Positions 12,828 through 63,839 of a stretch of 64,000 nucleotides of DNA are shown here, piece after piece. The notes under the pieces are model-generated. The model ran no database searches. It was not told where the DNA came from and saw nothing but the letters and a program-made list of their open reading frames with translations. The stretch lies in the NCBI GenBank assembly GCA_050613775.1, contig JBODTK010000152.1, positions 248,001 to 312,000 on the forward strand, in the 5' to 3' direction. Numbering within the stretch: the stretch's first letter is position 1; each line of letters starts with the position of its first letter. This DNA comes from Neocallimastix sp. 'constans' (lineage: Eukaryota). The position numbers and the translations under genes were made by a program.

Positions 12828-14284
12828 ATGGAAGACAATATAAAAATTGAAATAATAAGTGAAACAAATCGAGGAAATGAACAAATTATTATTAATAAAA
12901 AACACAAATTTAATTTTTCATTTCAAAGGAAAGATAAATCAAAAATTTATAGATGCACTGAAATATAAGACTTTAAATAAATGTAAATCTTTAATTATTT
13001 TAAATGATAAAAAGGAGGTTTTAAAATATAAAAGTTTACATAACCATCTCGAAAAAGAAATTGATGTGTCTATATCAGTAGCAAAGCATAAAATTAAGGA
13101 AGAAATTAAGAAAAATTCAATTCCTATGGATATAAAACCTAAACATATATTTAATGCCGTTTCTCAAGAAATGGGACTTATATGTCCCGAATATAGTACA
13201 ATTAGATCCCAAATAATAAGAAATATAAATAAACAATTTCCTCCAAACATAAAAAGTTTTGATGATATTCCCATTGAATCAAAATATTATAAAACGAAAA
13301 GAAATGAAAATTTTATGATATTTAAAAATACTGATCTAATAATCTTTCAATCACCATTCCAAGCATATTTATTTTCGAATTATCATAAAAATATATTTGC
13401 GGACGGTACATTTTATGTAGCACCGAAATTTAGTTATCAGTTATTTATAACAAGAACTTATGTTGGGGAATTTAATATGTTTTACACTACTTCCATTTCT
13501 ACATTAAAAAATAAAAAACAATCTACATATGAAACATTATTTAATGAATTAAAAAAAAATGTAAATAAATTTAGGAGTAATACATTAATTACTACAATTA
13601 ATTTTCATTGTGATTTTGAACAAGGTATATCTAATACCGCAAAAAAAGTTTTTCCCAATATAAATATTAAATATTGTGTTTGGCATTACAAAAGATCATT
13701 AGAAAAACAAAAAAAAATATATTATGTTATCATGAAGTGAAGAATAATAATGATGTATATATTTATTATAAAGCTATTTCGAACTTATCGTTTATAAACC
13801 CTAACTATATATTTGATATTTATATTATAATAAAAAGAATTTGTCAAAAAAAAAAGTATAATAATTTTCTGCAATTTTTAGAATATTTTAATAAAAATTA
13901 TTTACTTAAGTATAATGGTAATAATTGGAATTATTATGAAAATATAGAGCATTTAACAAACAATGCATCAGAATCTTATCATAGCTACTTAAATAATATA
14001 TTTCCAAATAAACCTTTATTTTATAAATTAATATATATATTAAAAGAAGAAGAAAACTTATCTTATAATGATTATCAAAGGAGAACTAAAGGAAATTGGA
14101 AAAAAAGCAAAAAATATTTAGTGCAACTGATGAAATTAAAATTTTAATTGAAAATTATAAAGGTAAGGAAATAAATTTATTTTATAATGGATGCAACAGA
14201 AATGAATTAATTAAATTATGGAAAGAATGTTTAATTGATTTAAACGATATAAATATTAATTTAAAATCAATAATCTTAATTTAA
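12828..14284 (+). pseudogene. MULE transposase (FLYWCH-type zinc finger + DDE domain) with three frameshifts
   Basis: ATG at 12828 gives MEDNIKIE..SETNRG...IYRCTE / YKTLNKCKS...HNH. Catalytic motifs IFADGTF, HCDFEQG, CVWH and TNNASESYHSYLN. Shifts near 12960, 13710 and 14100, all in A runs. Confidence 0.88.
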
Positions 14285-14585: not shown

Positions 14586-15004
14586 TTTTCAAAATTAATT
14601 ATGTTATTAAAAATATTAAATTCAATAAAAGATTTTTATTATTTTATTAAAATTATAATTGTTATTATTATATTTTAATAATAATTGATTCATATTGATC
14701 AAACATTATAAATATTACTATGCAAATAATTAATTATTTTAATAGGATCAATTATTCAACTCTTATTGTTTTAATTTTTAATTCTTATATCATTTAAATT
14801 AATATATATATATCGTTTATGAAAATATGAATTATAAATAATTAAAATTATTTACTTTTCATTTAAATTTTTTTATTTACTGTAATAAAATATAATAATT
14901 AAAAGACAAACGTTATTATAACTAAATTTTTTTTTTTAGAAAAATAAATGAAAAAAAATTAAAATATATAAGATTCCTATATATATAAAATAATTATTAT
15001 ATCT

Positions 15005-17112
15005 TATTTTATTTTATTTTATTTTATTTTATTCAATCTGTACTTTATACTTATATTCTACTATTTTATTTTATTTTATTTTATTTTATTCAATCTGTAC
15101 TTTATACTTATATTCTACTATTTTATTTTATTTTATTTTATTTTATTTTATTTTATTTTATTTTATTTTATTTTATTTTATTTTATTTTATTTTATTTTA
15201 TTTTATTTTATTTTATTTTATTTTATTTTATTTTATTTTATTTTATTTTATTTTATTTTATTTTATTTTATTTTATTTTATTTTATTTTATTTTATTTTA
15301 TTTTATTTTATTTTATTTTATTTTATTTTATTTTATTTTATTTTATTTTATTTTATTTTATTTTATTTTATTTTATTCAATCTGTACTTCATATTTATAT
15401 TTCAACTATTTATTTTATTTTATTTTATTTTATTTTATTCAATCTGTACTTTATACTTATATTCTACTATTTTATTTTATTTTATTTTATTCAATCTGTA
15501 CTTTATATTTAATATTCTACTATTTTATTTTATTTTATTTTATTCAATCTGTACTTTATACTTATATTCTACTATTTTATTTTATTTTATTTTATTCAAT
15601 TTGTACTTTATACTTATATTCTACTATTTTATTTTATTTTATTTTATTCAATCTGTACTTTATACTTATATTCTACTATTTTATTTTATTCAATCTGTAC
15701 TTTATACTTATATTCTACTATTTTATTTTATTTTATTTTATTCAATTTGTACTTTATACTTATATTCTACTATTTTATTTTATTTTATTTTATTCAATCT
15801 GTACTTTATACTTATATTCTACTATTTTATTTTATTCAATCTGTACTTTATACTTATATTCTACTATTTTATTTTATTTTATTTTATTCAATCTGTACTT
15901 TATACTTATATTCTACTATTTTATTTTATTTTATTTTATTCAATCTGTACTTTATATTTAATATTCTACTATTTTATTTTATTTTATTTTATTCAATCTG
16001 TACTTTATACTTATATTCTACTATTTTATTTTATTTTATTTTATTCAATCTGTACTTTATACTTATATTCTACTATTTTATTTTATTTTATTTTATTCAA
16101 TCTGTACTTTATACTTATATTCTACTATTTTATTTTATTTTATTTTATTCAATCTGTACTTTATACTTATATTCTACTATTTTATTTTATTTTATTTTAT
16201 TCAATCTGTACTTTATACTTATATTCTACTATTTTATTTTATTTTATTTTATTCAATCTGTACTTTATACTTATATTCTACTATTTTATTTTATTTTATT
16301 TTATTCAATCTGTACTTTATACTTATATTCTACTATTTTATTTTATTTTATTTTATTCAATCTGTACTTTATACTTATATTCTACTATTTTATTTTATTT
16401 TATTTTATTCAATCTGTACTTTATACTTATATTCTACTATTTTATTTTATTTTATTTTATTTTATTTTATTTTATTTTATTCAATCTGTACTTCATATTT
16501 ATATTTCAACTATTTATTTTATTTTATTTTATTTTATTTTATTTTATTCAATCTGTACTTCATATTTATATTTCAACTATTTATTTTATTTTATTTTATT
16601 TTATTTTATTTTATTTTATTTTATTTTATTCAATCTGTACTTCATATTTATATTTCAACTATTTATTTTATTTTATTTTATTTTATTTTATTTTATTTTA
16701 TTTTATTTTATTTTATTTTATTTTATTTTATTTTATTTTATTTTATTTTATTCAATCTGTACTTATATTTATGCTTTTTATTTTATTTTATTTTATTTCA
16801 TTTTATTTTATTTTATTCAATCTGTACTTCATATTTATATTTCAACTATTTATTTTATTTTATTTTATTTTATTTTATTTTATTTTATTTTATTCAATCT
16901 GTACTTCATATTTATATTTCAACTATTTATTTTATTTTATTTTATTTTATTTTATTTTATTTTATTTTATTTTATTCAATCTGTACTTCATATTTATATT
17001 TCAACTATTTATTTTATTTTATTTTATTTTATTTTATTCAATCTGTACTTATATTTATGCTTTTTATTTTATTTTATTTTATTTCATTTTATTTTATTTT
17101 ATTCAATCTGTA
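15005..17112. repeat. compound minisatellite: ~32-bp TTCAATCTGTACTT... core alternating with (TTTTA)n, about 30 cores
   Basis: Cores TCAATCTGTACTTTATACTTATATTCTACTA and TCAATCTGTACTTCATATTTATATTTCAACTA; 52-bp period in 15994-16410. Confidence 0.95.
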
Positions 17113-18922: not shown

Positions 18923-20176
18923 TTAATTGGAAACTTTTTGTTTAATTTCATCACCAGCGGCATTAGCAGCAGCGGTCATATTTTCATAATTGGATGATTC
19001 AATGTAGGTATGATAAACACGTAATAATGAATCAACTTCTTCAATACCTAATGGTTTAATATCTGCTAATTCCTTAATCTTTCTAGTAATTTCTTTAATT
19101 TCTGCATCAGATAAATGTAAATCAAGTTGTTCACATCTAGATTTAACTGCATTCCAACCAGTAAGACGGTGACCAATAGAGACATAACGTGTCATACCAA
19201 AATCTTCTGGACGTAAAATTTCATAAGTGGTTGGATTATTAAGAATAGCCTTTGCATGAATACCTGCCTTGTGAGTGAAGGCACAGTAACCAGTAATGTA
19301 ATTGTTGAATGGAATTTGAATTTCAACGAAATCGGCTACCATATTTTCAATATCACGAAGCATATGAAGATTATATTTATCTGTAACGTAAGTTTTATCA
19401 GCAACATACATACGAGCAGTAAAACCACCTAATGGTGTAATACCATTACGTTCACCAATACCTAAAATACAAGTATCAATGTGAGTAGCTCCAGCTTCTA
19501 AAGCACAGTAAGCATTAGCAATAGCACAACCAGTATCATTATGGAAGTGACATTCAATATCACAATTAACAACACCTCTTAAAGTTCTAATTAATTCATA
19601 AACTTGACGTGGATGAGCACAACCAACTGTATCAGCAACACCAACACGGTTAACACCAAGTTTGTCAACATGACGGTAAAGTTTAAGTAAATCAACTAAA
19701 TCGGAACGGAATGAATCTTCAGATGAGAAACGAACTTCCTTACCTTTAGATTTAATGAAAGTAACAACTTCTTCAGCTACTTGATAAATAGTTTCCATAC
19801 TTTTACCATGAGAAAACTTACGTAAGTAAGAAGAAGTACCAATGACAACACTTAAACCATCAACACTAGTTTCAACACCAACCTTAGCATCATCCATGTG
19901 ACAACGAATGTGTGCTAATTTCTTACATTTTAAACCTAATTGGCAAATCTTTTCATTATCTTCTCTTGATTGTTCAGAAGCAACTGGTGAAGTTAATTCA
20001 ATATATTCAACACCAAAATCATCTAAAGCCTTGGCAATTTTTAATTTTTGTTCAGTATTGAAGAAAGCATTAGCAAATTGTTCACCTTCTCTTAAAGTGG
20101 TATCAATAACATTGAAATTTGAAATGTTACTTAATAAATCAGTAATTCTAGCGTATGGGGAAGAAGCAGTAGACAT
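18923..20176 (-). CDS. LYS21: homocitrate synthase, copy 2, intronless, 417 aa
   Basis: Same motifs as 4531-5775; retains the canonical HKAGIHAKA. Confidence 0.96.
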
Positions 20177-20876
20177 TATTCAATTTACTAAAAAAAAAAA
20201 AAAAAAATTAATAAATAAGATATAATAAAAAAAAGATAGAAAATAAAAAAAAAATAATAAAAAAATTAAAAAAAGACAAATTTAGTATATGTATTGATTA
20301 AAAAAAAAAAGTATTAAAAAAACAATTAATATATATAAAATAATATAATATTTTAATATTTTTTTTTTTTTTTAATTCGTTGGAGAATAAAAATGTATAT
20401 TCTTTATTTTTATTTTTTATTATATAATAATATTTATAAAAAAAAAATTGTTTTTTAATAAATTATAATAATAAATTATTATTATTGTTAGTAATATTAA
20501 TACAGAATAAAAAAAAAAAAAAAAAGAAATATTAAAATTTTTGAAAATATTTTTTTTTGTCTTTTTATATTATTTTAACAAAATATTAATATATTTTTAT
20601 TTTTTTATTTTTTTAATTATTTCATTTTAAAATTAAGTATAATTAAATATATTAATATATGATGTAATATATGTATTTTTATAAAAAAAATATAAAGATA
20701 AGCTTAATTTTTGTTATGGAGTTTTTATAATTTTTTTTTTATATATATGACAAAAAAAAAAAAAAAAAGAAACATATAATTAATGAATACTAATATATGA
20801 ACTAATTGATCATAAATTTAATTGTTTAAATATAATATAAACTTTTATATTACCATGTTTTTTTATATAATTATTT

Positions 20877-25173: not shown

Positions 25174-26174
25174 TATAACGATGCTGATATGATACGGGGT
25201 GTCACTAAATACCTTGTATTTCCTATTAAATACTCTTATTAATATTACAATAAAAATTATTATTAAATCTTATTATTAAAATCTTTTATTAATATCAAAT
25301 ATAATAAAAATTATTATTAAATATTCTTATAAATTTCTTTTATTATTATCAAATATAATAAAAATTATTATTATATATTCTTATTAAAACCTTTTATTAA
25401 TATCAAATATAATAAAAATTATTATTAAATATTCTAATAAAAATCTTTTATTAATATCAAATAAAATAAAAATATTATTAAATATTCTTATTAAAAATTA
25501 AATATAATTTAAATCATTATTAAATCTTATTTTTTTTTTTATTAAGTATAATAAAAACTATTTCAATAAATATTTGATATAAAATACAGAATTATAAGTC
25601 TCTGTATAATATTTTCTAAACCTTTGAAATAAATTATGAATAAAACAAAAATCAAAACTAAATTAAATACTTATTAAAATAAAAATGAACCAAAATACAG
25701 AAATTCATCAATAACAAAAATGAACCAAAATACAGAAAACATTAATTCTGTATAATTTTCTCTCTAAAGACAATATCAAGAGGAAGCTACCGCCGGGAAG
25801 CCTTCGTGATACAAGCTCCAAATTTAATTTTTATAGTTTAATTTAATAAATGTTAATTTTTTTAACAATATAAATAGTATTAAAAATAATTTAAAATAAT
25901 AGTAAAAAGTTAAAAATAAAATAGTTAGAATAATTTTTTTTTAAGAATATAATAAAGATAAATAAAATGTATTAAAATAAAAAGTATAAAAAGAAGAATA
26001 AATTTCTTTCTTTTTAATACTTGGAACAAATGATTTTAAATTTAAATTTAAAAAAAGAATATTTTAAAAATTAATTTTTGTTTCCAAATTTATTTTATCT
26101 TTATGTGTTAATATTTATTTTTTGTTTTGAATATCTTAGTATTTCAACCCCAGCCCGTATCAGATATCGTTACA
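25174..26174. mobile_element. probable solo LTR or non-autonomous TIR element (~1 kb)
   Basis: Ends TATAACGATGCTGATATGATACGGGG ... CCCGTATCAGATATCGTTACA form imperfect inverted repeats of the TGTAAC..GTTACA type. Internal ~50-bp tandem repeats at 25240-25500. No TSD recognised. Confidence 0.5.
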
Positions 26175-26329: not shown

Positions 26330-28560
26330 GATATATTTTCTTTAGATTTAATACTATATAAAATTACTTCTTTTCTTTCATTGAAGTGGTGATAGCTTAC
26401 TCTAACATGTCAAAGTTTCATACTAATGTAACAATTTTTAGTGGAAAATAAAGATGTTCTATTGCCTCGGTTTAAGTTTATTACAAATTTCTTTTTGAAT
26501 ATTTCATTAAGCATGCTTTTTTTTTTATCCATAAACCATTTGCTATAGCTTCAAAAAGAGAAATATATTTTCTTCTGCCGTAGATCTTGCTACTGATTGC
26601 GGTTGTTGTCTTGACATTCAAGTGATTGGTCCTGAAGCTAAGAAAAAGACATTTCCTGAGGTTGATTTACTAATTAATGAATTTCTTGAAAAATCGGAAT
26701 CTGTACAACCAACTAATTCTCCTCTTCTTTTATATAAAATATAATAATTTTTAGTTTTATTTAAATATTTGAGAATATTAATTACCTTCTTCTAATATGA
26801 TACTGTAAGATTTGAATTTTTTTTCTTGATACTTTGCTAACGGAGGATATTACCTGGTCTTGTTGATTTAGATATATGTAAAGAACAGTTAACTACATTT
26901 TGATAGATAGTCTTATCAAATAGTATTTTGTTAATTAATTTTACATCATCATCAGTATATGGAGTAGAAATCTTTTTGATTTTCTTTAACATTAAATTTT
27001 TTTAAACATTTTCAATGTAATTTTCTTTGGAGATTATATATTTATTTCTTCCGAAACATTCTTCTTTTTATTATTAAATATAATTAATAACAATATCCGA
27101 AACTTTGTTAACCCAATAGGTCGACACTATAAATATCCAAGTAATAAAGAAATAAAGAAAATTTGTTTTATTAATTATTAAAAATATTAAATAGAGCAAA
27201 TAACTATAACTAAGATATTACTTATATATTGAATATATAAAAATAAAATCATTTTGTTGATGAAATCACCTATATTTATACTTTTTTTGGAAAAACAATT
27301 TCTTCATTAAAAAAGTATAAAAATTTCAAGAAAAATATTTTAATCGATGAAAATGAATTATATGATCAAAATAATTAAATAATTTATAAAATTAGAATTT
27401 TCTAATAATTTTTAGCTAAATACATATAACCGAGAAATTCTAGTAATTTCTACAATTACTATTCAAATAGAAAAATGTAGAAATTAAATATATATTAAAT
27501 AATTAAAATATAAATTTTTTGTAAAATGCTCCGAGGTTGGAGTCATATCCATGAATCATAAATCATGGCCAAGGTAATTGACCACTAGACCTTGGTTTTA
27601 ATTTCTAAAATTTTAAGGTTAGTTATATCTTAAAATATTTAATCTTAAAATATAATTGATTTCTTCGCATTTGGATGTTTTAAATTTTAAATTTATTATT
27701 AATAATACTAATAATTTAATAAATTTCTTTTTTAATATCTGTAATTTACATTTCATCTGCATACAATGTTATTAGACACTTTACATTATTTTTATTGTCC
27801 CATTTAACGAATAAATATTAATCACATCTTAATTGATATAATCTTTTTTTCAATTAAAAATTTGCTGATTGATTGATTCCATTTGTGACCAGCTTGTTTC
27901 AAACCGTATAATACCTTATTTAATTTATATTAACCTTTGCTAAAATTTTCTTCTGGGAGTGTTGAAGAAGAAAGCTAAAATAATAATTTGCATATTCTAT
28001 TTGATTATATCCTTTTATTATCCTTTTTTTTTTTAATGAATATCCATCTTGGACTTAGTGATTTAATCCTTTCTGGAGGTTTTGAAATGAATGTTATTGC
28101 ACTATTTTTTTTTTTAGATTCTGGAGTTCAATAGTTATTGTTTTAATCCACTTCTCATTTCTTTGAAGGAAATGACTTCGTAATAATTCTTTGAATTATG
28201 CTTTATAATATTGGTGATTTTCTTTGTTTTACAAACTTTATATGTAATATTCTCAGGTGGAATATCAGATCTTTTAACTTTAATTTTTATTTTTTGTTCT
28301 TTATTATCATTATTATTTATTTTCTTTCAAATATGGATCTATATAGTAGTAAGTTTTACATCCTAAAGCTTGTAACATATAAATACTTATATGTTTTTTT
28401 TTTTTTTTTATATAAATTAGAAGTTCATCATGTATTTTGAAATCTTGGAGATAATATTATAAATGTAGTTAGCAGTTTTGATAGCATTTTCACAGAAGTT
28501 TTCACTTAGTCTTGTGTTTGACTTAGCAATACTTTTATTGAATTCTCTAAAAGCGTCATT
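26330..28560 (-). mobile_element. decayed Ty1/copia pol remnant (RT + RNase H)
   Basis: Minus strand reads NKVLYGLKQAGHKW (~27880-27920) and GELVGCTDSDFS...KSTSGNVFFLASGPIT*MSRQQ..SVARSTAE (~26570-26720). Many stops; apparently interrupted at ~27060-27740. The upper boundary is approximate. Confidence 0.8.
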
Positions 28561-30773: not shown

Positions 30774-32189
30774 ATGGCTGAAAATATAAATGTTAACAAC
30801 CCTAGCCAATATTTTGTTGGCGCATATGTTTATAAGAATGACGAATATGGTTTAGGTTCTGATATACCAAATCAAATTCAAGTTATTGAAAATTTTTGTA
30901 AAATGAAGAATCTTAATATTGTTGATTATTATATTGATAACAATAATGATGACAAGCTAGAAGTGTTAGAAAGAACAGGAATAAAAAGATTACTCAATGA
31001 CGTTAATACAGATAAATTAAATATGATTATTGTTAAGGATTTAGATTCCTTTAGCACGGACTACAAAAAGGTTAAGAAAATCATTCAAACTTTATTGGCC
31101 AACCCTAAAAACAAATTTATTGCTATTGAAAATGATATTGTCATTGGTAATAATTCCGAAAAAGAATTTAATGAAAAATTAAAGTCAAAAATTAACAGTA
31201 GACGTAAGTATAAAATGGGTGGTCGTCTTAAACCAAATGTTGTTTTAAAGAAAATTTACAGTGCTCCACATACCAATAATGTTATATGTAGACCACCTTT
31301 TGGTTATTTATTAAAGGCTAACACGAAAAATGAATTTATTATCGATAGACCTGCTGCTGATATTGTTGTTGAAATATTTGCTAAAATTATAGAAGGTTAT
31401 TCATATCAAAAAATTGCTAATAGTTTTAATGAAAGAGGTATATTAACTGTTTCACAGTATGCTGAAAAAATGGGAAGAAATCCAAGAAAAATAAGTACAC
31501 AATGGAACACCTCTACTATATACCAAATAGCTACCAATGAAATATATTTAGGTCATTTGGTTAAATCAAACTTTGGAAGACCAACCTATAAGTCAAAGCT
31601 TCAAAGAAAATCTGAAAAAGTTGTTTATTATAATGCACATGAACCAATCATTGATGAACAAACCTTTAAATTAGCTCAAAATATTACTCATGGAAGAACA
31701 AAGAGTTCTACTCAAAAGGCTGTTAATAGTAGAAGAGCTCCATTTGGTTATGATATTGATATAAATAATAATAATAAATTTGTTATTGATCCAGAAGCAG
31801 CAGCTGTTGTAAGAACCATTTTTAATAGAATTATCCAAGGATTCTTCTATTATCAAATAGCGGATGAATTTAATTCTACTGGTGTATTAACCATTTCTCA
31901 ATATGAAAGTAAAAAAGGAAAAAAGCAAAGAAAAATTAGTACAAAATGGAATACCTCTACTATATATAAATTAGTAAGAAATGAAGTTTATCTTGGACAC
32001 ATTGTAAAGATAAAGAAAGTAGTCGATGAGTTAGATGGTTCTGTCAAAAAAGAAAAAATTATTATTCGCAATACACATGAACCTATTATAACAGAAGAAG
32101 TTTTTAAATTAGTTCAAAAAATTATACGTAGTAAGCATGTTGCTAGTATTACTGATAGCGAAACTGATAAATCAGAAAATTCAATTTAA
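30774..32189 (+). CDS. large serine recombinase-derived protein, 471 aa: catalytically degenerate resolvase domain + 2 tandem recombinase (PF07508-like) domains
   Basis: N-terminal GAYVYKN...IPNQIQVIENFCK..NLNIVDYYID...ERTGIKRLLND...IIVKDLDSFST follows the resolvase pattern. Two copies of PFGY...IID..AA.(I/V)V..IF...G..Y..IA..FN..G.LT...WNTSTIY....NE.YLGH...HEPII.E..FKL.Q at ~31290-31680 and ~31734-32117. Confidence 0.88.
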   Translation: MAENINVNNPSQYFVGAYVYKNDEYGLGSDIPNQIQVIENFCKMKNLNIVDYYIDNNNDDKLEVLERTGIKRLLNDVNTDKLNMIIVKDLDSFSTDYKKVKKIIQTLLANPKNKFIAIENDIVIGNNSEKEFNEKLKSKINSRRKYKMGGRLKPNVVLKKIYSAPHTNNVICRPPFGYLLKANTKNEFIIDRPAADIVVEIFAKIIEGYSYQKIANSFNERGILTVSQYAEKMGRNPRKISTQWNTSTIYQIATNEIYLGHLVKSNFGRPTYKSKLQRKSEKVVYYNAHEPIIDEQTFKLAQNITHGRTKSSTQKAVNSRRAPFGYDIDINNNNKFVIDPEAAAVVRTIFNRIIQGFFYYQIADEFNSTGVLTISQYESKKGKKQRKISTKWNTSTIYKLVRNEVYLGHIVKIKKVVDELDGSVKKEKIIIRNTHEPIITEEVFKLVQKIIRSKHVASITDSETDKSENSI

Positions 32190-32851
32190 ATTATGATGAT
32201 TTTTATCATAATTAATATACAAATTTTACCTTTATATATATATTTTTTTTTTATATTTATTTATTCTTCCTAGTTTTATTATTAAAATCTTTTTTTATTA
32301 AAAATTTTCAAATTCATTTATTTGTTTTAATTCAATTTTCTTATTTCAATTTTTTTTTTTTTTTTTTTTTCAAAAAAAAAATTTATTTTTATAATATGAA
32401 TATATATAATAATTATGAATATAATTATTATTACTATTATTATAATTATTTTATTAAATAGAATCAAATTTATAATATTAAATTATCATTAGATAAAAAA
32501 AGATTAATAAATTTTTTTTCTGATATTTATAATAATAATATTTATATTTATTTCTGAATATTATTATTATGAATATTTATATTTATTTTTATTCTAATTA
32601 TTTAGTTTATTCATTTTTCTTTTTCTTTTTCTTTTTTAGTATTCCTTTATATATTAAGTATTAAAATTAAATTAATAATTTTTTAATATTATATGAAAAT
32701 ATTTGATAATAAGTATTTACGAAAAAAATTTTTACTAACCAAGGCAAATAAAATATATATATATATAGTATTAATTTAAAAGTAAGTTACAAGAAATTGT
32801 TATTTATAAAAGTAAAAAATAAATAAAAAAGTATATATATATCGAAAAATT

Positions 32852-32913
<62 letters not shown>

Positions 32914-33209
32914 TTAAAGTATTTTATTTATTGATATGGAAAATGCTATGAACTTAACTTTTTCTTCTTTATATTAATTATTAAAATTTATTTATAAAGT
33001 TTTATTTTTATTATATATTTCTTTAAATTTTTTTTTTAAGATTTATATGTATAATAAATTTTAAAATAAGGATAAATTAAAAATTAAGCTTTTTTTTCTC
33101 TTTTTTCTTTTTTTAATAAATTAAAATTTTCAATTAGGGTTAAAATTATTTTATTTATTTTATTTTTTTTAATTAAAAAATTTTAATATGTAATATTTAT
33201 TATTTATAA

Positions 33210-33352
33210 TTTATTATTTATTATTTATTATTTATTATTTATTATTTATTATTTATTATTTATTATTTATTATTTATTATTTATTATTTATTATTTATTA
33301 TTTATTATTTATTATTTATTATTTATTATTTATTATTTATTATTTATTATTT
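33210..33352. repeat. (TTTATTA)n heptanucleotide tract
   Basis: Directly visible between the two recombinase-derived genes. Confidence 0.85.
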
Positions 33353-34002
33353 ATAGTTCATTATTTATTATTTATTTTATTATTTATTATTTTTTTATCA
33401 ATTATTAGTTAATATTTAATATTTAATTAATTGATTATTATTTATTATATATTATTATATATTTATTATATATTATTATGTAGCATTTTTTTATTTTTAT
33501 AATAAAACTATTTTATATATAAATTTTATAATATATAATTTGTACAATTAATTTAAATAATTAGTTATTCAAATTGAAAATATTATAAAAATTTTTTTTG
33601 AAAGTTAATTATTGTGATAGCTAATTAAATAATTATTTTTAATTATTTTTAATAGAAAAATAATTTATTCATTGATAGTTATTCTAATTAACATTTAATT
33701 AGAATATTATTATTAATTATCAACAGTATATTATTATTTTGTCATTATTTGTCTTTTTTTTTTATGTACTTTCTTATTTCTATTTTATCAATTTTTTTTT
33801 TGACTGTAAATATACAAAGTTTGAAGATATTGTAAAGAATTATATTTAAATAAAATAAAGTAATTAATAATTAATTAATAATTACACAATAAATTAATGT
33901 ACTAATTATTAAATTTTTATTAAAATATAATTAAAATTTTTTTTATTATTATTATTATTTTTTTTTTTTTTATATTATATTATATTGTTTTTTCATATAA
34001 CT

Positions 34003-37000
34003 ATGTCTGATATTAAATACAATTTTTTTTTTCAAAATATTAATAGTTTAATTAGTAATAAAATTGGTATTTATATTTCTAATTTAAATAATTCAGGAAA
34101 GACATTAAAAGAAATTCAAGATATATTAGAAAATTTTTGTAAGGATAAAAATTTATGTATTAAACATGTTTATATTGACTATGAAGGAAAGTCCAAATTA
34201 AATTTACTTAAAAATGATTTAGCTAATAAAATTATAGATTTAGTAATTACTTATGATAATATTGCTTTAGGTAGTAATTATGAAGAAATTGAACATTTTA
34301 TTTATGATTCAATTTTAAATAATAATGCAAAATACATAGCAATTAATAATAAGTTTGAAATAAATAATAAGAATTTCAAATTTCAAATCCCTATTTTAAA
34401 AAAATTGTATAGTCATTATGAAATTGAAAATAAAAAACTAGTACAGAAAAAAATGGTTTTAACTCCACCATTTGGCTATATAAGAGATGAAAATAACCCG
34501 AGGCATTTTATTATGGAAATTGAATCTTATAATATTATTTTAAAAATATATGAAAGGATTTCAGATGGATGGTCATTACAACAAATAGTGGATTATTTAA
34601 ATTCAAAAAATGCCTTAACTGTAAATCAACATAAACTAAAATATAAAGGCGATTATGACATTAATAATATTTTAAATGATAATAGTTATTGGACTCCTTT
34701 AGATATCAAAAATATAATAAATGATAAACGATATATGAATAAAATTGATACAAATTTTGAAAGTTTTAATGGTGTTAAATATGAACCTATTATTAATGAA
34801 AAAAGTTTCCATTATGTACAGAAATCATTTCGATATATTGTTGATGATTATGAATGTTGGTTTAATAATTTAGAAACAACAGTTAATAAAACAATTCCTT
34901 ATGGATATAAAATAACTTCAGATGATCCACAAAGATTAGCTCTTGATAGTAATACTTCATTTGTTGTAAAGCATATTTTCTATAAAATAGTGGATGGTTA
35001 CACTTCTTATGAAATTGCTGAACATTTAAATAAGGCCGGTGTTCCATCTATATCACAATATAAATTATCTGTTGGTGCAAAAATTTCAAAACCATCTTAT
35101 AAATGGTCTAACAAAGATGTTTTATCCATAATAAATAATAAAATTTATACTTGTCAAAAAATTGATAATAGTTCATTTTCATTAAATGGATTAAACATTA
35201 GAATAATTGAACCATTAATAGATAAATCCCTATTTAGTATAGTTCAAATTATATTAAATAATAATAAAAATGATAAGTTTAAATATTATGAAAATTGTCA
35301 CATGGATAGTAATGAGTTTATCTATGGATATATAAAGGATCCATATAATCCAAATAATTTTATTTTAGATTATGAAGCAGCAAAAATAGTGAAATATATA
35401 TTTTATTCTAAAGTGAATGGTAGTACTGATAAAGAGATAATTGATAATTTGAATTTAAGAGGAATTCCTACAATATCAAAATATGAAAAAAATAATAATT
35501 TTTCATTTTCCTTTATAGATCATAAAAATTGGACTGAAAATGATATTAAATTAATTATTAATAATACTTTATATTTAGGGTCAAACTCAAAAATAAATCG
35601 CATTAATAGCAGTACTTCAATATTTAAAAATGTTGAACCATTAATTGATGAGGTAATTTTCAAAATTATTCATCCAGAATATCAAAATAACAAAGTATAC
35701 CCAATGCCTTCAAAAAATAATAATGATTATATATTAGATAAGTATTATATTCCTTTTGGTTATACAGTTGATTTTAAATCAATAAAAATATTAATTAAAG
35801 AAAAAAGAGAAGCGGGAATCATTAAAGATATTTTTAATTATAAAATTAAGGGTAAAACTTCACAACAAATCTCTGATTTATTGAATTCTTATCAGATATT
35901 TTTTACATATCGATATTTAATCAATACAGGTTTAAATTATAAGTTATGCGAAAAAAATTCATTATGGTTTGTAAGTATTGTAGATAATATTTTAACAAAT
36001 GAGATATATAAAGGTATATCATTAAAATCAGATGTAGATTATAATTTCTTTAAGAGTTCAGAAACTATTATTGATGATGTTATATTTGATAGAGTTATTA
36101 AGGAGATAGAAAGTGAATCTATAAAAGGCAAAGATAAATTTGAAAATAATAATAACCCACAAGTCAAAATTATTAATAAATTTAATAAACATAATACTTG
36201 TGATAAGGATAAGAATGATAATGGCATATTGGAAAAAATTAATTTTGATTTAGATAAGGAGATATCTCAATTGGAGGAAGATTTCCAGAAAATAAATTTT
36301 ATTGATAGTAAAGAAAAGTTAAGCGAGTATCATAAAATATTAAACGAAACAATTTATTCAAAAACAGAAATTAAAAATAAAAATGAAAGCTCACTGGAAA
36401 ATGGAAAAGATAATAGAACAGAATTTATTTCCAAAGAGAGAGGTGATAATAATGAAATAAATATCTTTAATTCAATAGAAAATGAAAAGAGTAATGGTAT
36501 TCAAAGTAATTATATGAATAGCATTGATAGCACAGAAATAAATATTTCTAATTCATATGAAACTTTAGTTAATGATAATTCCACCATTGATGAAATAAAT
36601 ATGCCTAAAATACATAATTTATATGAAATTTTAAGTGATGATAATTCTACTACTATTAATGAAATAAATACACCAAACATGACTAATTCATATGAAACAC
36701 TTTTTAATAATAATTCTACCATTAATGAAATAAATATATCTAATTTACCTAATTTAGATAAAATTTTAGTTAATAGCAATTCTACTATTAATAAAATGAA
36801 TGATGTTATTAATGATTCCAAAAGTGAAGAAATTATAAAATGGGATAGTATTAATGAAAATAAATCGAAGAACTTGGATAATTATAACAATTTAAATATT
36901 GTTATTGATAAAAATATTTCTCAAGATAAATTAAAAATTAATAGTATTTATCAATATCATTCAGATAAAAATAATATGGTTTCTTTATGTCATACATCAA

Positions 37001-38463
37001 ATATCATTAATAATTCAATTATTAATGACCAGGCAGGTAGAAATAATGTCATTAACAATAAAATATGCAATGAATATAATATAGATGATGATGAAAACAA
37101 TGTTAGGAATAATTTAATAAGTGATAATAATAATAATTCTGATAAATTTATAAAAGAAGAACAAATAATTACTGACAAGGAATTATTAAATAGTAATGAA
37201 GGTAGTTATGAAGATAATAAAGATTCTTATGATTTTTATAATCATATTAACCCACCACCATATGGATATAAGTATACTGATAATTATAGTAATAAACTAA
37301 GTGTTGATAAGGAGGCTGCTTCAATTGTTAAAGATATATTTCAAAAATCATTTCAAGGTTATTCTAAACAAAAAATTGTTGATTATTTAAATTCAAAAGA
37401 AGTATTATCTATATATCTATATCGTAAAAAAAAAGGTTTAGAAAAAAAATCCAGAGTAAGAGCCAAAAAATGGAATATTAGTTCTATTAACAACATTTTA
37501 TCAGATATTACATATATTGGTCATACAAAGATGGATAGTGCTCAAAATAACAATACTGTTGAATATAATACGCATGAAGCAATTATAAAAGAAAGCATTT
37601 TCAATATTGTTAATTCAACTAAATCCAGAAAATCAATAGCACCTTATGGTTATAAATATGATTTTAATGATCCTCAAAAGTTAGTAATTCAGGAGGAAAC
37701 GGCATCCATTGTTAGATTAATATTTCAATGGACTACTTTAGGTAAAACATTTATTCATATTGTTGAAAAATTAAATCTTAGAAAAGCAGTAACGTTAACA
37801 GAAGATAAAATTAGTAAAGGAGGAAATGTAGGCTCTTCAAAAAATCGTTGGAATGAAGCTCATATTTCAACAATTTTACATGACGAAACTTATATGGGTC
37901 ATACAGTAGGTGAAGAAATTACATATAACACACATGAGCCAATTATTAGTGAAGATAAATTTAATGAAGCACATTATATTTTAGAGAAACGTAAACGGGA
38001 TAACCGTATTGCTATGTGTAATAGTAATAAATATAAATTTTCAACACCATTACCTCCATATGGATATACCTATTTTAATAAAAGTTTAATTATTAATGAA
38101 GAATCAGCTAAAATTGTAAAAAAAATTTTTTCAGAAATAATTTCTGGTAAATCAATTAGATCTATTGCAAATCAGCTTAATGATAATAATGTTATGACAA
38201 TTGCTCAGTATCATTATCATTATTGTAATAAATATAATAAGAAATGGGATTGTTGGGGTTTGCCCACGATTAGAAGTATAGTGACAGATTTAACCTATCT
38301 TGGTCATACTACATTTTACAGAGAAAGAAAAATTAAAGCACCCTCATCATCATCTAAAAAAAATAAAAATGAGAAAATTTTATGCATTGGAAAACGAAAT
38401 ACACATAAAGCTATAATCGATGAAGAAACTTTCAAGTTAGCCCAATTATTTATAAAAAGATAA
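34003..38463 (+). CDS. large serine recombinase-derived protein, ~1486 aa: degenerate resolvase domain + 7 recombinase domains (4 + Asn-rich linker + 3)
   Basis: ATG at 34003 (MSDIKY). N-terminal IGIYIS...ENFCKDKNLCIKHVYID...DLVITYDNIALGSNY. Seven (P)xGY...W...I.N/D..Y...(H)EPII-type modules start at ~34462, 34894, 35320, 35749, 37252, 37639 and 38053. Uninterrupted 4.5-kb ORF. Confidence 0.88.
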   Translation: MSDIKYNFFFQNINSLISNKIGIYISNLNNSGKTLKEIQDILENFCKDKNLCIKHVYIDYEGKSKLNLLKNDLANKIIDLVITYDNIALGSNYEEIEHFIYDSILNNNAKYIAINNKFEINNKNFKFQIPILKKLYSHYEIENKKLVQKKMVLTPPFGYIRDENNPRHFIMEIESYNIILKIYERISDGWSLQQIVDYLNSKNALTVNQHKLKYKGDYDINNILNDNSYWTPLDIKNIINDKRYMNKIDTNFESFNGVKYEPIINEKSFHYVQKSFRYIVDDYECWFNNLETTVNKTIPYGYKITSDDPQRLALDSNTSFVVKHIFYKIVDGYTSYEIAEHLNKAGVPSISQYKLSVGAKISKPSYKWSNKDVLSIINNKIYTCQKIDNSSFSLNGLNIRIIEPLIDKSLFSIVQIILNNNKNDKFKYYENCHMDSNEFIYGYIKDPYNPNNFILDYEAAKIVKYIFYSKVNGSTDKEIIDNLNLRGIPTISKYEKNNNFSFSFIDHKNWTENDIKLIINNTLYLGSNSKINRINSSTSIFKNVEPLIDEVIFKIIHPEYQNNKVYPMPSKNNNDYILDKYYIPFGYTVDFKSIKILIKEKREAGIIKDIFNYKIKGKTSQQISDLLNSYQIFFTYRYLINTGLNYKLCEKNSLWFVSIVDNILTNEIYKGISLKSDVDYNFFKSSETIIDDVIFDRVIKEIESESIKGKDKFENNNNPQVKIINKFNKHNTCDKDKNDNGILEKINFDLDKEISQLEEDFQKINFIDSKEKLSEYHKILNETIYSKTEIKNKNESSLENGKDNRTEFISKERGDNNEINIFNSIENEKSNGIQSNYMNSIDSTEINISNSYETLVNDNSTIDEINMPKIHNLYEILSDDNSTTINEINTPNMTNSYETLFNNNSTINEINISNLPNLDKILVNSNSTINKMNDVINDSKSEEIIKWDSINENKSKNLDNYNNLNIVIDKNISQDKLKINSIYQYHSDKNNMVSLCHTSNIINNSIINDQAGRNNVINNKICNEYNIDDDENNVRNNLISDNNNNSDKFIKEEQIITDKELLNSNEGSYEDNKDSYDFYNHINPPPYGYKYTDNYSNKLSVDKEAASIVKDIFQKSFQGYSKQKIVDYLNSKEVLSIYLYRKKKGLEKKSRVRAKKWNISSINNILSDITYIGHTKMDSAQNNNTVEYNTHEAIIKESIFNIVNSTKSRKSIAPYGYKYDFNDPQKLVIQEETASIVRLIFQWTTLGKTFIHIVEKLNLRKAVTLTEDKISKGGNVGSSKNRWNEAHISTILHDETYMGHTVGEEITYNTHEPIISEDKFNEAHYILEKRKRDNRIAMCNSNKYKFSTPLPPYGYTYFNKSLIINEESAKIVKKIFSEIISGKSIRSIANQLNDNNVMTIAQYHYHYCNKYNKKWDCWGLPTIRSIVTDLTYLGHTTFYRERKIKAPSSSSKKNKNEKILCIGKRNTHKAIIDEETFKLAQLFIKR

Positions 38464-39074: not shown

Positions 39075-39641
39075 TTATTGAATTTGAATAATACGTTTTT
39101 GACTTTTTGGAGTTTCCATCTTTTTAAATAAAACTTCTAAAACACCATTTTCCATCTTGGCTTGAATATTATTAAGATCGGCATCTTCAGGAATACTAAA
39201 TGATCTTTCAAATTTACCATAACTACATTCCATCATATGGAACTTCTTATTTTTCTTATTCTTATTATCTTGTCCTTCCTTCTTTTCTCCTTCTTTTGCT
39301 TCTTCACCTTCTTTATTCTTTTCTTTGTCATCACTATCTTTGAAAGATTCTCTTTCTCCAGATATAGTGAATGTACGATCATCAGATATTTCCATCTTGA
39401 CTTGATCCTTTTTCATACCTGGTAAATCAGCATGAATATAATAATTGTTTTCATCTTCACTAAGATTTATTTTTGGAGAGAAATCAATTAATGAATTCTT
39501 TTCTAATGAACTCTTTGAATTATGACGACGATTATTGTAAAAAGCAGGTTGATAAAATGGAAAAGCTGGAATTAAAGGATGATTGAAGAATTCATCTTCA
39601 AAATCATTAAAGAATGGATCGCTATGATGATATAAAGACAT
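39075..39641 (-). CDS. small heat shock protein (HSP20/alpha-crystallin family), 188 aa
   Basis: FSPKINLSEDENNYYIHADLPGMKKDQV...TISGER...ECSYGKFERSFSIP...IQAKMENGVLEV. Confidence 0.95.
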   Translation of the reverse strand: MSLYHHSDPFFNDFEDEFFNHPLIPAFPFYQPAFYNNRRHNSKSSLEKNSLIDFSPKINLSEDENNYYIHADLPGMKKDQVKMEISDDRTFTISGERESFKDSDDKEKNKEGEEAKEGEKKEGQDNKNKKNKKFHMMECSYGKFERSFSIPEDADLNNIQAKMENGVLEVLFKKMETPKSQKRIIQIQ

Positions 39642-53534: not shown

Positions 53535-56500
53535 GAATGATTAGTATCGATAGTATTAATAATTATTTTATTAGTATTAACTATATATTTATTATTATCA
53601 CTAATTGTATTAATATTTTCTGTATTTGAATCATTTATTTTATTATTTATTATTGTTGCAATATTATCCTCATTCGTCTTATATTTTTCATTAAAAATAT
53701 TAATATTTTCATTATTGTTTAGTATTTTCTTGTTTATTTCAACCTTATCACTTTTTTCATCATTTTTATGGTTTTCAGATTTATTACCTTTTTCATCATT
53801 TTTAATTTCATTATTTTCATTATTTTCATTATTTTTATTATTTTCATTATTTTTATCATTTGTATTGTTTTCATCATTTTTATTGTTTTCATTATTTTTA
53901 TTATCTTCATCATTTTTATTATCTTCACCATTTTTATATTCTTCAACGTCGTTTTTATATTCTTCAACATCATTTTTCTTAGTACTGGTATCTAGTGCTT
54001 TAATAAAATCACGTTGTAGTTGAATTAAATCTAAAGATTCATCATTTTCATCTAACCTTTTGAAAATAATAATATTCATCTTTTCTTTTGACTTTGATTT
54101 AGTAATTTTTCTAACTTTATCATCATCATTTATTTTTTTTGGTCTAGATGATAAATTATTATTAATTAATACTGTATTAGATATTGTATTAGATGAGTTG
54201 ATATCAACATTAGAATTTTTTTCTGTATTGTATGAATTGTTAGCATTAATATTATATGAATTATTAGTATTAGTATTATTTGTATTTGATTGAACTATAT
54301 TCTTATTATTTAATATATTAATCGTATTAGGTGATGAATTAATAGAATGTACTACTGTTGTATTTGTATTTGTATATGTATTTATAATTGGTGTTGTTGA
54401 TGTTGTTGGTGTTTGAGCTGTTACTGTTGAAAATGAATTTTTTGGATTTTGGGTATTGATTGAATTAATATTAGAAACAATTAAAGGTGAGACTGGTGAT
54501 AAATTTCTAGTAGTTGGATTGATTTTATTATTATTAGTTGAATTTATTGTCACAGTGTTATTAGATAGAGTATTTGGAAGTGGAAGTGGAGCATTTAATG
54601 GTAAGTTAACCATGTTAGAATTTGTTATTTTAGGTACTAATGTCAATAACGGTTGACTAGATGATATAGAAGGAGGTGATGATATGGGTAAAGGTAAATA
54701 CTGTGAATTTATAGGACGTACTAAAGTATTAGACGGAGATGGGATAGACTGAGGTAAAGAATAATTTGATAAATTAATATTTGATTGTGCATTTACAGGA
54801 TGTTGATTGATAATTGAATTCTGAGTTATAGGTGGGTGATTTCCTACATGTGTTGTTGTATTCAATAAATTAATATTTGATTGTGTATTGACAGGTTGTT
54901 GATTAATAATTGAATTTTGAGTTATGGGTAGGTAATTTCCTACATGTGTTGTTGTATTCAATATAGATGAAGAATTATTTCTTATTGATGACGTAATTGG
55001 ATTAATAATATTATTGAAAGATGATGTTAATATATAATTACTTTGAGAAGAATTATTAATTACAGGGATTCTATTATTTAAAGGATGAACTGTATTCATT
55101 AATGTTGGATTAAAATTTTTTAATGGATCTTGGTTTATTTGGGTTAAATTATTACCCGTTTCGATAGAATTTTTGTTTAATATATTAATGTTTATTAATG
55201 TATTTTGATTTAATTGTGTTATATTATTAGCTGGAGCTATAGGACTTATGTTTGTTACTGGTGTAATATTATTAATTACAGGTGAATTTATTGATGATAC
55301 AACAAGAGGGCTAGTAATAGCAGGTTGAATAGTATTTGAAATATATTTTTTGTTAGTATTGGTAAACGAAGTTTGAACATTATTTAATATATATGATTTT
55401 TTATTATTATTTGTAATGGAAGGTTGGACAGTATTTAATGTAGTGGTGGTTATGATATTTATATTTGCATTTGTATATGCATTTGTAGATAAATTTATTT
55501 CGTTATTAGGGTGAATATCTGTATTTTTAGCATTATATGAAATAGTATTAATGTTAGAAGTATTAATTATTGTTGTTGTATGAGAATTAGGTGTTGTAAT
55601 AGTATTAGTTTTTGGTTGTGTTGCCATTTTATCCGAGTTAGAAGAAGATGAATTTATTATAGTAGTTGAATTGATATTTGAATTTGGTAAAGAGATTATT
55701 TTTGTTGAAGCAATAGCTCTACTATTAGCAGTTGTTGCTGATACAATAGGATTATTGTGAGAAGGACTAAAATTTGATAAATAAATATTTTCATTGGTAA
55801 CCGAAGAGGCATTTGTAATTGTAGATTTTTGAGTATTATTACTAATTACTTGTGTAATTTTTGGTTCAGAAGATGAATTAATTTCACTTGTTAAATTAAC
55901 ATTACTTTTATTAATTAAATCAAATTTGCTACTATTATTACTAGTACTTTCATGATTATTATTGTTTAATATAGATGTTGATTTATCATTACTATTAGAT
56001 GTTGCTGTTGCTGTTAAGTGCGAGTTAACTATATCTTTTGAAAAGGGTGTGGTTAGATTAGAATTAGAATTTAATGAACTATTGATAATTTTATTTTTTG
56101 TTTTAATTGGATATTCGTTATAGAATTTAAATATTTCTGGAAATTCTGCTTTGAATTTTCCGTATTTTTTAGCTTTTTCTTTATATTTCGTTTGAAGATC
56201 CTCAATTTCGTTAGGATCAGAAGTTTTATTCATATTTTGAATAATAGCTTTCAATGATTTAATTGCTTCAACATAGTCAAAGAATGTAGGATAATACGGA
56301 TTAGTACGTTTTTCTTTTGATGAATTCGAATAAATTATTTTAGTTTTTGTTGTTGTTTCTCCTGCTCTTTTTTCATTATTATCATTATTATTGTTATTAA
56401 GAGTATTGTTATTATTAACATTACTAAAATTATTATTTTTATTATCATTATTTATAATATTGTCAATATTTGAAGCATTTTTTGAATTTTCTATATAATT

Positions 56501-56723
56501 ATTATTAATTAATTTTATTTTTTTGGCTTGATGATTCTGATTATTGTATGAAATATCAGGTGTATGTAAAGGTGAATCTATTTTTTTTTTCTTTAATTCT
56601 AATATATATATATATATATATAATATTTCATATACATATTAATTTTTAATAATTAATTCTAAAAAAAAAAAAAAAAAAAAAAAACAAATTTTAAGTATAT
56701 ATTCATTACAAACCTTTTTCCAT
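51368..56723 (-). CDS. large low-complexity (Asn/Ser/Thr/Pro, Glu/Lys) protein of unknown function, ~1746 aa
   Basis: The frame of ORF 51368-56254 stays open up to an AG acceptor at 56599. A candidate micro-exon ATGGAAAAAG|GT lies at 56723-56714. The C-terminal ~170 aa look globular; family not recognised. Confidence 0.7.
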
Positions 56724-60366: not shown

Positions 60367-60388
60367 TAGATTTTCTTGAATTTTTTCA

Positions 60389-63778: not shown

Positions 63779-63839
63779 GATTTCGGAGCGGTGAAGCGAA
63801 TTAATTAAGTACTTTTAATAATAAATAATATGAGTCAAC

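What the first reader, a model, noticed from the sequence alone, without database searches (positions are those of the whole stretch)
30774..38463. Tandem pair of catalytically dead, domain-multiplied large serine recombinases in a fungal genome: candidate domesticated DNA-binding system
Seen: two adjacent, co-oriented, intronless, intact ORFs. Each has an N-terminal resolvase-like domain followed by repeated recombinase domains (2 and 7 copies). Shared idiosyncratic blocks (ENFCKMKNLNI/ENFCKDKNLCI, KFIAIEN/KYIAINN, VLKKIYS/ILKKLYS) mark them as paralogues. Established: large serine recombinases (phiC31, Bxb1, TnpX, Ccr type) are prokaryotic, with one catalytic domain, one recombinase domain and a zinc ribbon/coiled coil. 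Anaerobic gut fungi are known to have acquired many genes from rumen bacteria. The motif style (IIVKDL.., LG.NY, TYKSK, NTHEPII) recalls clostridial TnpX-like enzymes. Inference: one horizontal acquisition, then loss of catalysis, gene duplication and array expansion, giving a modular sequence-specific DNA binder (regulator, chromatin/centromere factor or anti-mobile-element factor). This would parallel the tyrosine-recombinase/Crypton-derived Gcr1/Ndc10 proteins. I do not know of a described serine-recombinase equivalent, but cannot verify novelty here.
Basis: partly seen in the sequence, partly recalled or inferred. Interest (0 to 1): 0.92.

Follow-up and report, generated by a model that had tools for sequence, protein, structure and literature searches.

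The report
Gut-fungus domesticated serine recombinase DNA binders
Anaerobic gut fungi carry a gene derived from a bacterial DNA-cutting recombinase that has lost its cutting residues but kept two almost unchanged DNA-gripping domains across genera, so it likely serves the fungus as a sequence-specific DNA-binding protein, and next to it sits a fast-diverged likely sister gene with seven such domains, so far seen only in Neocallimastix.

Summary
Two intact, intronless ORFs carry 2 and 7 recombinase domains (RD, PF07508) and no zinc ribbon. ORF1 is a real host gene: full-length orthologues at 79-94% include Neocallimastix, Pecoramyces and Piromyces. All three catalytic arginines are lost in 26 of 26 orthologues. 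The RDs stay 89-94% identical (dN/dS 0.04-0.06) while the dead catalytic domain drifts to 62-74%. The RD1 recognition helix is invariant in 26 of 26. Best reading: a large serine recombinase acquired from gut bacteria and domesticated as a sequence-specific DNA binder. Binding and cellular role are untested. ORF2 orthologues were not found outside its Neocallimastix cluster, so a conserved pair with variable repeat number is not shown. The 'idiosyncratic blocks' are weak evidence, although a tree supports paralogy (98/97). Catalytic-domain-plus-RD-array proteins also occur, rarely, in bacteria, on separate branches. The domain was tabulated as gut-fungus-specific in one 2019 supplement but not discussed; no description of the gene was found.

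The parts
30774..32189 (+). ORF1, 471 aa: dead serine-recombinase catalytic domain + helix E + two recombinase domains; conserved across anaerobic gut fungi
30810..31148 (+). ORF1 degenerate catalytic (resolvase-like) domain, aa 13-125; Y-x-R-x-S reads Y-V-Y-K-N, D-L-S-R-x-G-R reads D-L-D-S-F-S-T
   Evidence: 62-74% identical to three distant orthologues
31149..31286 (+). ORF1 helix E region, aa 126-171 (dimer and minor-groove helix in serine recombinases; that role is inferred here)
31287..31697 (+). ORF1 recombinase domain 1, aa 172-308; recognition helix WNTSTIYQ (W244) and basic hairpin SNFGRPTYKS[KR]
   Evidence: both motifs in 26 of 26 orthologues
31731..32135 (+). ORF1 recombinase domain 2, aa 320-454; recognition helix WNTSTIYK (W392); 49% identical to RD1
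   Evidence: 23 of 26 identical helix, 3 with T>V
34003..38463 (+). ORF2, 1486 aa: degenerate N-terminal domain + 4 recombinase domains + Asn-rich acidic linker + 3 recombinase domains
34045..34452 (+). ORF2 highly degenerate resolvase-like domain (aa 15-150), no catalytic Arg or Ser
   Evidence: (pairwise to ORF1); no PF00239 hit
34459..36117 (+). ORF2 recombinase repeats 1-4 (aa 153-279, 296-421, 437-563, 581-705); most diverged, three of four near neutral or acidic
36118..37248 (+). ORF2 low-complexity linker, 377 aa, 21% Asn, net acidic
37249..38460 (+). ORF2 recombinase repeats 5-7 (aa 1083-1210, 1211-1330, 1349-1486); repeats 5 and 7 basic (pI 9.7)

Best explanation
ORF1 is a gut-fungal host gene descended from a bacterial large serine recombinase that has lost its catalytic arginines and its zinc-ribbon/coiled-coil and doubled its recombinase domain, and it likely works as a sequence-specific DNA-binding protein, most likely a transcription or chromatin regulator. 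Shown: the ancestry, the catalytic loss, conservation in at least three genera, and selection concentrated on the two recombinase domains and their recognition helices. Inferred: (1) acquisition from a gut Firmicute-type element before these genera split; (2) the second recombinase domain replaced the lost zinc ribbon as the outer DNA grip, so each subunit would read two copies of a similar short motif over about 25 bp; (3) the dead catalytic domain and helix E are kept as a dimerisation module, so a dimer would cover a two-fold site of about 50 bp. ORF2 is probably a tandem paralogue whose array grew to seven diverged domains. It is intact and appears in RNA-library assemblies, but was found only in its Neocallimastix cluster, so its function is less certain.
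For: Six clusters of full-length orthologues at 79-94%, then a gap to bacterial-type recombinases at 25-32% (6 and 114 of the 120 listed). Named members: Neocallimastix sp. 'constans', Pecoramyces, and Piromyces finnis on a 1.96-Mb contig; three of the six clusters are unnamed. Catalytic Arg positions: 0 of 26 orthologues keep any of the three, against 112 and 113 of 114 bacterial hits keeping the two motifs. Identity to three distant orthologues: RD1 89-94%, RD2 89-93%, catalytic domain 62-74%. Nei-Gojobori dN/dS on two homologous contigs: RDs 0.039 and 0.064, catalytic domain 0.069 and 0.309. The W-N-T-S helix aligns with SPbeta integrase W-N-Q-Y, whose Y237 is inserted in the major groove (PMC11722253 passage). 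That helix is invariant in RD1 in 26 of 26 and in RD2 in 23 of 26, and the RD1-RD2 spacing is the same in 26 of 26. In LI integrase the RD covers 13 bp and loss of the zinc domain impairs binding (PMC3783163 passages), which gives a reason for a second RD. Both ORF1 RDs are basic (pI 9.6, 9.8). GC3 is 0.16 and 0.12, like the neighbours at 0.15-0.18. ORF1's two RDs form their own clade (SH-aLRT 98; 99/87), and the ORF2 N-terminal part is sister to ORF1 (98/97). Twenty-two runs hold the stretch, 12 on record as RNA; contigs from 4 of 4 laid runs match ORF2 without differences or a credible intron.
Against: No binding, localisation or target data. The RD alone reads only about 3 bp directly in LI integrase, so specificity may be low. 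The donor is unresolved: deep branches are open, and the bootstrap had not settled. ORF1 and ORF2 are both long branches and ORF2 has an unusual composition, so their grouping may be partly artefact. In RD-only trees the ORF2 repeats scatter; a single origin is neither rejected nor shown (AU p 0.28). In local-score ranking from ORF1, ORF2 ranks only 122-226 of about 373. No ORF2 orthologue was found in other genera. RNA-library contigs can contain DNA, and no silent control stretch or ORF1 stretch was laid. dN/dS rests on two pairwise comparisons with dS 0.5-0.9.
Confidence: 0.7

Rival explanations
1. A structural chromosome or genome-defence factor rather than a gene regulator. ORF1 would bind a repeated element (centromere, telomere-adjacent or satellite DNA, or mobile-element ends) much as Ndc10 or CENP-B do, and ORF2's diverged array would track fast-changing repeats. 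This refines the role and shares the DNA-binding mechanism of the best explanation.
For: Two near-identical recognition helices at fixed spacing suit repeated motifs. ORF2 is long-branched (1.63) and lineage-restricted, as expected of a protein tracking fast-evolving DNA. Precedent: Cbf2/Ndc10 and CENP-B (PMC3212892 passages).
Against: About 90% conservation of ORF1 RDs across genera fits conserved regulatory sites better than fast-evolving repeats. No target known; no whole genome was available for a motif search.
Confidence: 0.2
2. ORF1 is domesticated but does something other than sequence-specific DNA binding: non-specific nucleoid-like DNA binding, RNA binding or a protein scaffold.
For: The zinc domain, which carries much of the specificity and affinity in LI integrase, is absent. 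The whole RD, not only the helix, is conserved (115 of 137 columns invariant in 22 rows).
Against: The helix, the basic hairpin and the inter-domain spacing are fixed. The same helix is a programmable specificity element in Bxb1 (bioRxiv 10.1101/2024.05.09.593242 passages).
Confidence: 0.15
3. ORF2 is a young, relaxed or decaying duplicate with little function; only ORF1 matters.
For: No orthologue outside its Neocallimastix cluster. Repeats are 24-38% identical to each other, and four of seven are neutral or acidic. A nested origin beside the Neocallimastix ORF1 is not rejected (AU p 0.077).
Against: A 4.46-kb frame stays open at 22% GC. All seven repeats keep the fold core (10 invariant columns across nine repeats). 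It is present in RNA-library contigs of four studies. The best tree places it outside the ORF1 crown (100/100).
Confidence: 0.3
4. The genes are an active recombinase or part of a mobile element, or bacterial contamination.
For: The Ser position is retained in 13 of 26 orthologues. Public annotations call it a recombinase.
Against: All three catalytic Arg positions are lost in 26 of 26, and Ser varies to N or W. There is no zinc ribbon or coiled coil. Codon GC matches the host and the neighbours are fungal genes. Orthologues occur in several fungal genera. No terminal repeats framing the pair were among the repeats listed (only the 20 largest direct families and 25 longest inverted pairs were shown). 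Viral and plasmid relatives are only 22-35% identical in the rows shown.
Confidence: 0.03

Closest known systems
Large serine recombinases of Firmicutes (TnpX/TndX-like, DUF4368-bearing multi-targeting clade; structures of SPbeta, LI/A118, Bxb1 and phiC31 integrases)
   Same: Resolvase-like domain + helix E + recombinase domain in the same order. Best solved sequence match is the TnpX catalytic domain (E 7e-4); best fold matches are serine integrases. Most listed bacterial hits carry PF14287/DUF4368, which marks the multi-targeting clade including TndX-like enzymes (PMC10083194 passage).
   Different: Catalytic arginines lost; no zinc ribbon, coiled coil or DUF4368; recombinase domain multiplied (2 and 7); eukaryotic chromosomal gene under purifying selection.
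Crypton (tyrosine recombinase)-derived host proteins Gcr1, Msn1, Hot1, Cbf2/Ndc10, DUF3504 genes; DDE-derived CENP-B and Daysleeper
   Same: A recombinase or transposase that lost its catalytic residues and was kept as a conserved host gene acting on DNA (PMC3212892 passages). This is what it likely works like.
   Different: Different enzyme superfamily (serine, not tyrosine or DDE). The source is a bacterial element by inferred horizontal transfer, not a eukaryotic transposon. The retained module is the LSR recombinase domain in tandem. Function is not shown.
Unnamed bacterial-type serine recombinases with recombinase-domain arrays (P0158, P0160, P0254, P0237, P0159 [Gracilibacteraceae MAG], P0161)
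   Same: Resolvase domain followed by 2-5 PF07508 domains and no PF13408 hit.
   Different: P0158, P0160, P0254 and P0237 keep Y-x-R-x-S; P0159 and P0161 lack the Ser. They lie on branches separate from the fungal genes, so the arrays probably arose independently. They are rare (clusters of 1-5 members for the four looked up).
Modular repeat DNA binders (C2H2 zinc-finger arrays; TALE/PPR-type repeats, recalled)
   Same: Tandem small domains, each with a variable recognition helix; the Bxb1 RD helix is reported to behave like a zinc-finger helix.
   Different: Repeat of about 130 aa with an unrelated fold; a recognition code is not shown for ORF2.

Membership tests
Large serine recombinase (active enzyme) | N-terminal resolvase-fold domain (PF00239) | tested here: met
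   ORF1 29.2 bits over cut-off 23.3, fold match; ORF2 only by pairwise similarity
Large serine recombinase (active enzyme) | Catalytic Y-x-R-x-S and D-x-x-R-x-x-R residues | tested here: not met
   0 of 26 orthologues keep any of the three Arg; Ser in 13 of 26
Large serine recombinase (active enzyme) | One recombinase domain (PF07508) | tested here: not met
   Domain present but in 2 and 7 copies; 114 of 114 bacterial hits have one
Large serine recombinase (active enzyme) | Zinc ribbon with coiled coil (PF13408) | tested here: not met
   No hit at E<=1 in either ORF; ORF1 ends 17 aa after RD2 and ORF2 ends with repeat 7
Large serine recombinase (active enzyme) | Lies in a mobile element with att sites or termini | tested here: inconclusive
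   No framing repeats among those listed (truncated list); att sites cannot be excluded by this scan; conservation across genera argues against mobility
Domesticated mobile-element gene | Catalytically dead yet intact and under purifying selection | tested here: met
   ORF1 dN/dS 0.05 and 0.16 overall, 0.04-0.06 in RDs; ORF2 not testable for lack of an orthologue
Domesticated mobile-element gene | Orthologous across host lineages | tested here: met
   ORF1 in Neocallimastix, Pecoramyces, Piromyces; not shown for ORF2
Domesticated mobile-element gene | Single-copy and syntenic | not testable with these tools
   No genome held; homologous contigs L001 and L002 are under 2 kb
Domesticated mobile-element gene | Expressed | tested here: inconclusive
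   12 runs on record as RNA hold the stretch; ORF2 covered in 4 of 4 laid runs; contigs only, no silent control laid
Sequence-specific DNA-binding protein | Binds a defined DNA motif | not testable with these tools
   Inferred from the conserved recognition helix
Crypton-derived Gcr1/Ndc10 group | Tyrosine-recombinase fold and GCR1_C domain | tested here: not met
   No such Pfam hit; analogy only

The most novel reading that the evidence does not exclude
Anaerobic gut fungi have built a new class of eukaryotic transcription or chromatin factor from a bacterial large serine recombinase. ORF1 is a phylum-wide dimeric factor reading a conserved site with tandem recombinase domains. ORF2 is a natural seven-module array in which each domain reads its own few bases through a different recognition helix, that is, a zinc-finger-like modular DNA-recognition scaffold made of recombinase domains.
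Probability: 0.25. Interest if true: 0.92.

Novelty: new variant of a known kind. Interest (0 to 1): 0.76.

Why it matters
Domestication of tyrosine recombinases and DDE transposases into host DNA-binding proteins is established. No such case for large serine recombinases in a eukaryote turned up in the searches made here. ORF1 would be a lineage-specific DNA-binding factor of bacterial origin in fungi whose known horizontal gains are discussed mainly as metabolic, and it is small, intronless and easy to test by DAP-seq. It would offer a handle on gene regulation or chromosome biology in anaerobic fungi, which lack genetic tools. Natural recombinase-domain arrays, in fungi and in rare catalytically intact bacterial enzymes, also bear on how serine-integrase specificity can be built without the zinc ribbon.

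Tried and rejected
Contamination or chimera: rejected. 'Idiosyncratic blocks' as proof of paralogy: mostly rejected. Descent of the fungal arrays from the bacterial array proteins: not supported in the trees. Search for ORF2 orthologues: (817-2601 aa, candidates capped, Asn-rich linker may crowd them) gave only its own cluster and one bacterial LSR. One search (50% representatives, repeats 5-7) gave no fungal array, but ORF2's own cluster was not listed either, so orthologues above 50% identity could hide there. One search (under 817 aa) gave only ORF1 and bacterial-type hits. Absence is therefore suggestive, not shown. Synteny: the metagenome scan gave 2 loci, both under 2 kb. A genome scan for the bacterial array protein P0160 gave one ordinary three-recombinase cassette in a Butyrivibrio MAG, not an array. 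Viral scan: 8 distant loci, 22-35%. Alignment of three 5' flanks showed no convincing conserved motif in AT-rich sequence. The four 'joints' have only 21 letters on one side and were treated as spurious. The ORF1 model is unreliable for RD2 (pLDDT under 50; alignment lacked depth there). ESM Atlas returned only bacterial and phage recombinase clusters. Earlier findings of this scan: none. Literature searches found no description of the gene. Text searches of bioRxiv 10.1101/487215 (main text; supplements not seen), PMC11291939 (text and 2 supplements), PMC10978972 (11 supplements) and PMC6883316 (text) found no mention. Subscription papers were not searchable.
Full report
Observation. The window is very AT-rich and holds fungal-type genes: HSP20, homocitrate synthase, a CRAL-TRIO gene, a MULE remnant and a copia element. 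Two stop-free ORFs lie at 30774-32189 (471 aa) and 34003-38463 (1486 aa). Pfam gives PF00239 plus two PF07508 for ORF1, seven PF07508 for ORF2, and no PF13408 for either. ORF2's N-terminus aligns with ORF1's (32% over 94 aa, E 2e-9). AlphaFold models match serine integrases best: ORF1 E 5e-15, ORF2 repeats 5-7 E 4e-5.

Host gene, not contaminant. A search with ORF1 listed 120 proteins: six full-length clusters at 79-94% identity, then 114 bacterial-type recombinases at 25-32%. A fragment in ORF2's cluster is labelled Neocallimastix lanati. GC3 of the two ORFs (0.16, 0.12) is close to the neighbours (0.15-0.18). Neocallimastigomycota are dated to 66 +/- 10 Mya in PMC6712302 (passages), so ORF1 was probably fixed near the base of the sampled group.

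Catalysis. Read without gaps from the conserved Tyr, the Y-x-R-x-S motif has Y, S or C in place of Arg in 26 of 26 orthologue sequences; the Ser position is S in 13, N in 7 and W in 6. Both Arg of D-L-S-R-x-G-R are replaced in 26 of 26. Of 114 bacterial hits, 112 and 113 keep the two motifs. These 26 are the near-complete sequences among those fetched (shorter fragments were left out) and many are near-identical, so they are not independent. That these residues are required for serine-recombinase chemistry is established knowledge, recalled rather than tested.

Selection points at DNA binding. Against three distant orthologues the catalytic domain is 62-74% identical, RD1 89-94% and RD2 89-93%. 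dN/dS against L001 and L002 is 0.039 and 0.064 for the RDs and 0.069 and 0.309 for the catalytic domain. A profile of the nine repeats aligns their W-N-x-x helix with SPbeta integrase W-N-Q-Y; Y237 of that helix enters the major groove (PMC11722253 passage). In ORF1 the helix is WNTSTIYQ in 26 of 26 RD1 and WNTSTIYK in 23 of 26 RD2. The basic hairpin and the RD1-RD2 spacing are fixed in 26 of 26. In LI integrase the RD contacts 13 bp but reads only 3 bp directly, and deleting the zinc domain impairs binding (PMC3783163 passages). In Bxb1 the same helix is a reprogrammable specificity element (bioRxiv 10.1101/2024.05.09.593242 passages). Inference: a second RD took the place of the zinc ribbon. 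Serine recombinases generally bind their sites as inactive dimers, so the retained dead domain may dimerise; this could not be tested.

ORF2. Its repeats are 24-38% identical to each other and 27-37% to ORF1's; each has a different helix, and only repeats 2, 5 and 7 are basic. Contigs from two RNA-labelled and two RNA-guessed runs match it without differences; the longest pieces are 2141, 2261 and 2505 bases, with no credible intron. The best runs hold 0.72 of the sampled words of the 7.9-kb stretch, close to its coding share of 0.74 (my arithmetic). That is consistent with transcripts, but no silent control was laid. Public gene models hold ORF2 in pieces (310, 308 and 1053 aa). Three searches found no orthologue outside its own cluster, each with a blind spot listed under Tried and rejected.

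Origins. In a 193-domain RD tree ORF1's two RDs form one clade (SH-aLRT 98) while ORF2's repeats scatter without support. In a 66-row tree ORF1 joins ORF2 repeats 1-3, with one bacterial long branch, at 91/76. Holding all 11 fungal domains together is not rejected (AU p 0.28). In a 44-row tree of catalytic domain + RD1, ORF2 is sister to the ORF1 clade at 98/97; both are long branches and the bootstrap had not settled. Nesting ORF2 beside the Neocallimastix ORF1 is not rejected (p 0.077). So one acquisition followed by duplication is likely, the age of ORF2 is open, and no donor is resolved beyond recombinases of gut-Firmicute type. Bacterial rows were chosen by similarity to the queries and thinned at 50% identity.

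The architecture in bacteria. Of 151 proteins examined have one RD, 20 two, and 5 three to five. Many two-RD cases look like fused or misassembled ordinary recombinases. Six have a resolvase domain, 2-5 RDs and no zinc-ribbon hit (P0158, P0159, P0160, P0161, P0237, P0254), four of them with the catalytic motif intact; one is from a Gracilibacteraceae MAG. They branch apart from the fungal genes. The array is thus rare rather than unique, and probably convergent.

Prior knowledge. Table S1 of PMC6712302 lists 'Recombinase' among 40 Pfam domains unique to these fungi relative to chytrids (supplement row); the main text never mentions it. Six searches and text searches of four further papers found no description. 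Subscription literature and bioRxiv supplements were not seen. The functional precedent is Crypton-derived Gcr1 and Ndc10, and CENP-B (PMC3212892 passages).

Verdict. Real. ORF1 is a well-supported domesticated, catalytically dead large serine recombinase, likely a sequence-specific DNA binder (0.7). ORF2 is a probable paralogue of uncertain range and role. A two-gene 'system' is not shown. New variant of a known kind; interest 0.76.

Noticed in passing
proteins P0158, P0160, P0254, P0237, P0159, P0161: Bacterial-type serine recombinases with 2-5 tandem recombinase domains and no zinc ribbon; four keep the catalytic motif, and two (one from a Gracilibacteraceae MAG) lack the Ser. At least two separate clades. 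Genomic context unknown; worth a look of their own.
   Followed up: partly
window 39075-39641 (-) and about 41700-42268 (+): Divergent, inverted pair of near-identical HSP20 genes (96% over 482 nt) just downstream of ORF2; a short degenerate HSP20-like remnant appears by eye near 40690-40760.
   Followed up: no
window 4513-5775 (+) and 18923-20179 (-): Two convergent, single-ORF homocitrate-synthase genes (PF00682 + PF22617), probably a local inverted duplication.
   Followed up: no
window 12859-14147 (+): MULE transposase remnant in two frames.
   Followed up: no
window 58153-63814 (-); relic near 26400-27000 (-): Copia-type retrotransposon with gag-integrase and RT in separate ORFs; short copia-like pieces (judged by eye) upstream of ORF1.
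   Followed up: no
window 42825-45000 and about 15000-17100: Strongly strand-skewed T-rich satellite: (TATTT)n runs broken by a recurring short unit at the first place; the second shows a similar skew.
   Followed up: no
window 25246-25515: 54-nt tandem repeat, about 5 units.
   Followed up: no
window 51368-56638 (-): 1756-codon Asn-rich open frame without a Pfam hit, with a folded-looking C-terminal part.
   Followed up: no
window 45287-47779 (-): CRAL-TRIO (Sec14-like) gene in at least two pieces, presumably exons.
   Followed up: no
L003 883-5845: Butyrivibrio MAG cassette of three tandem intact large serine recombinases followed by a 697-aa protein with a GTPase-like motif (judged by eye).
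   Followed up: no
P0134, P0135, P0137: Public gene models hold ORF2 only in pieces (1053, 310 and 308 aa), which may hide orthologues in annotated genomes.
   Followed up: partly
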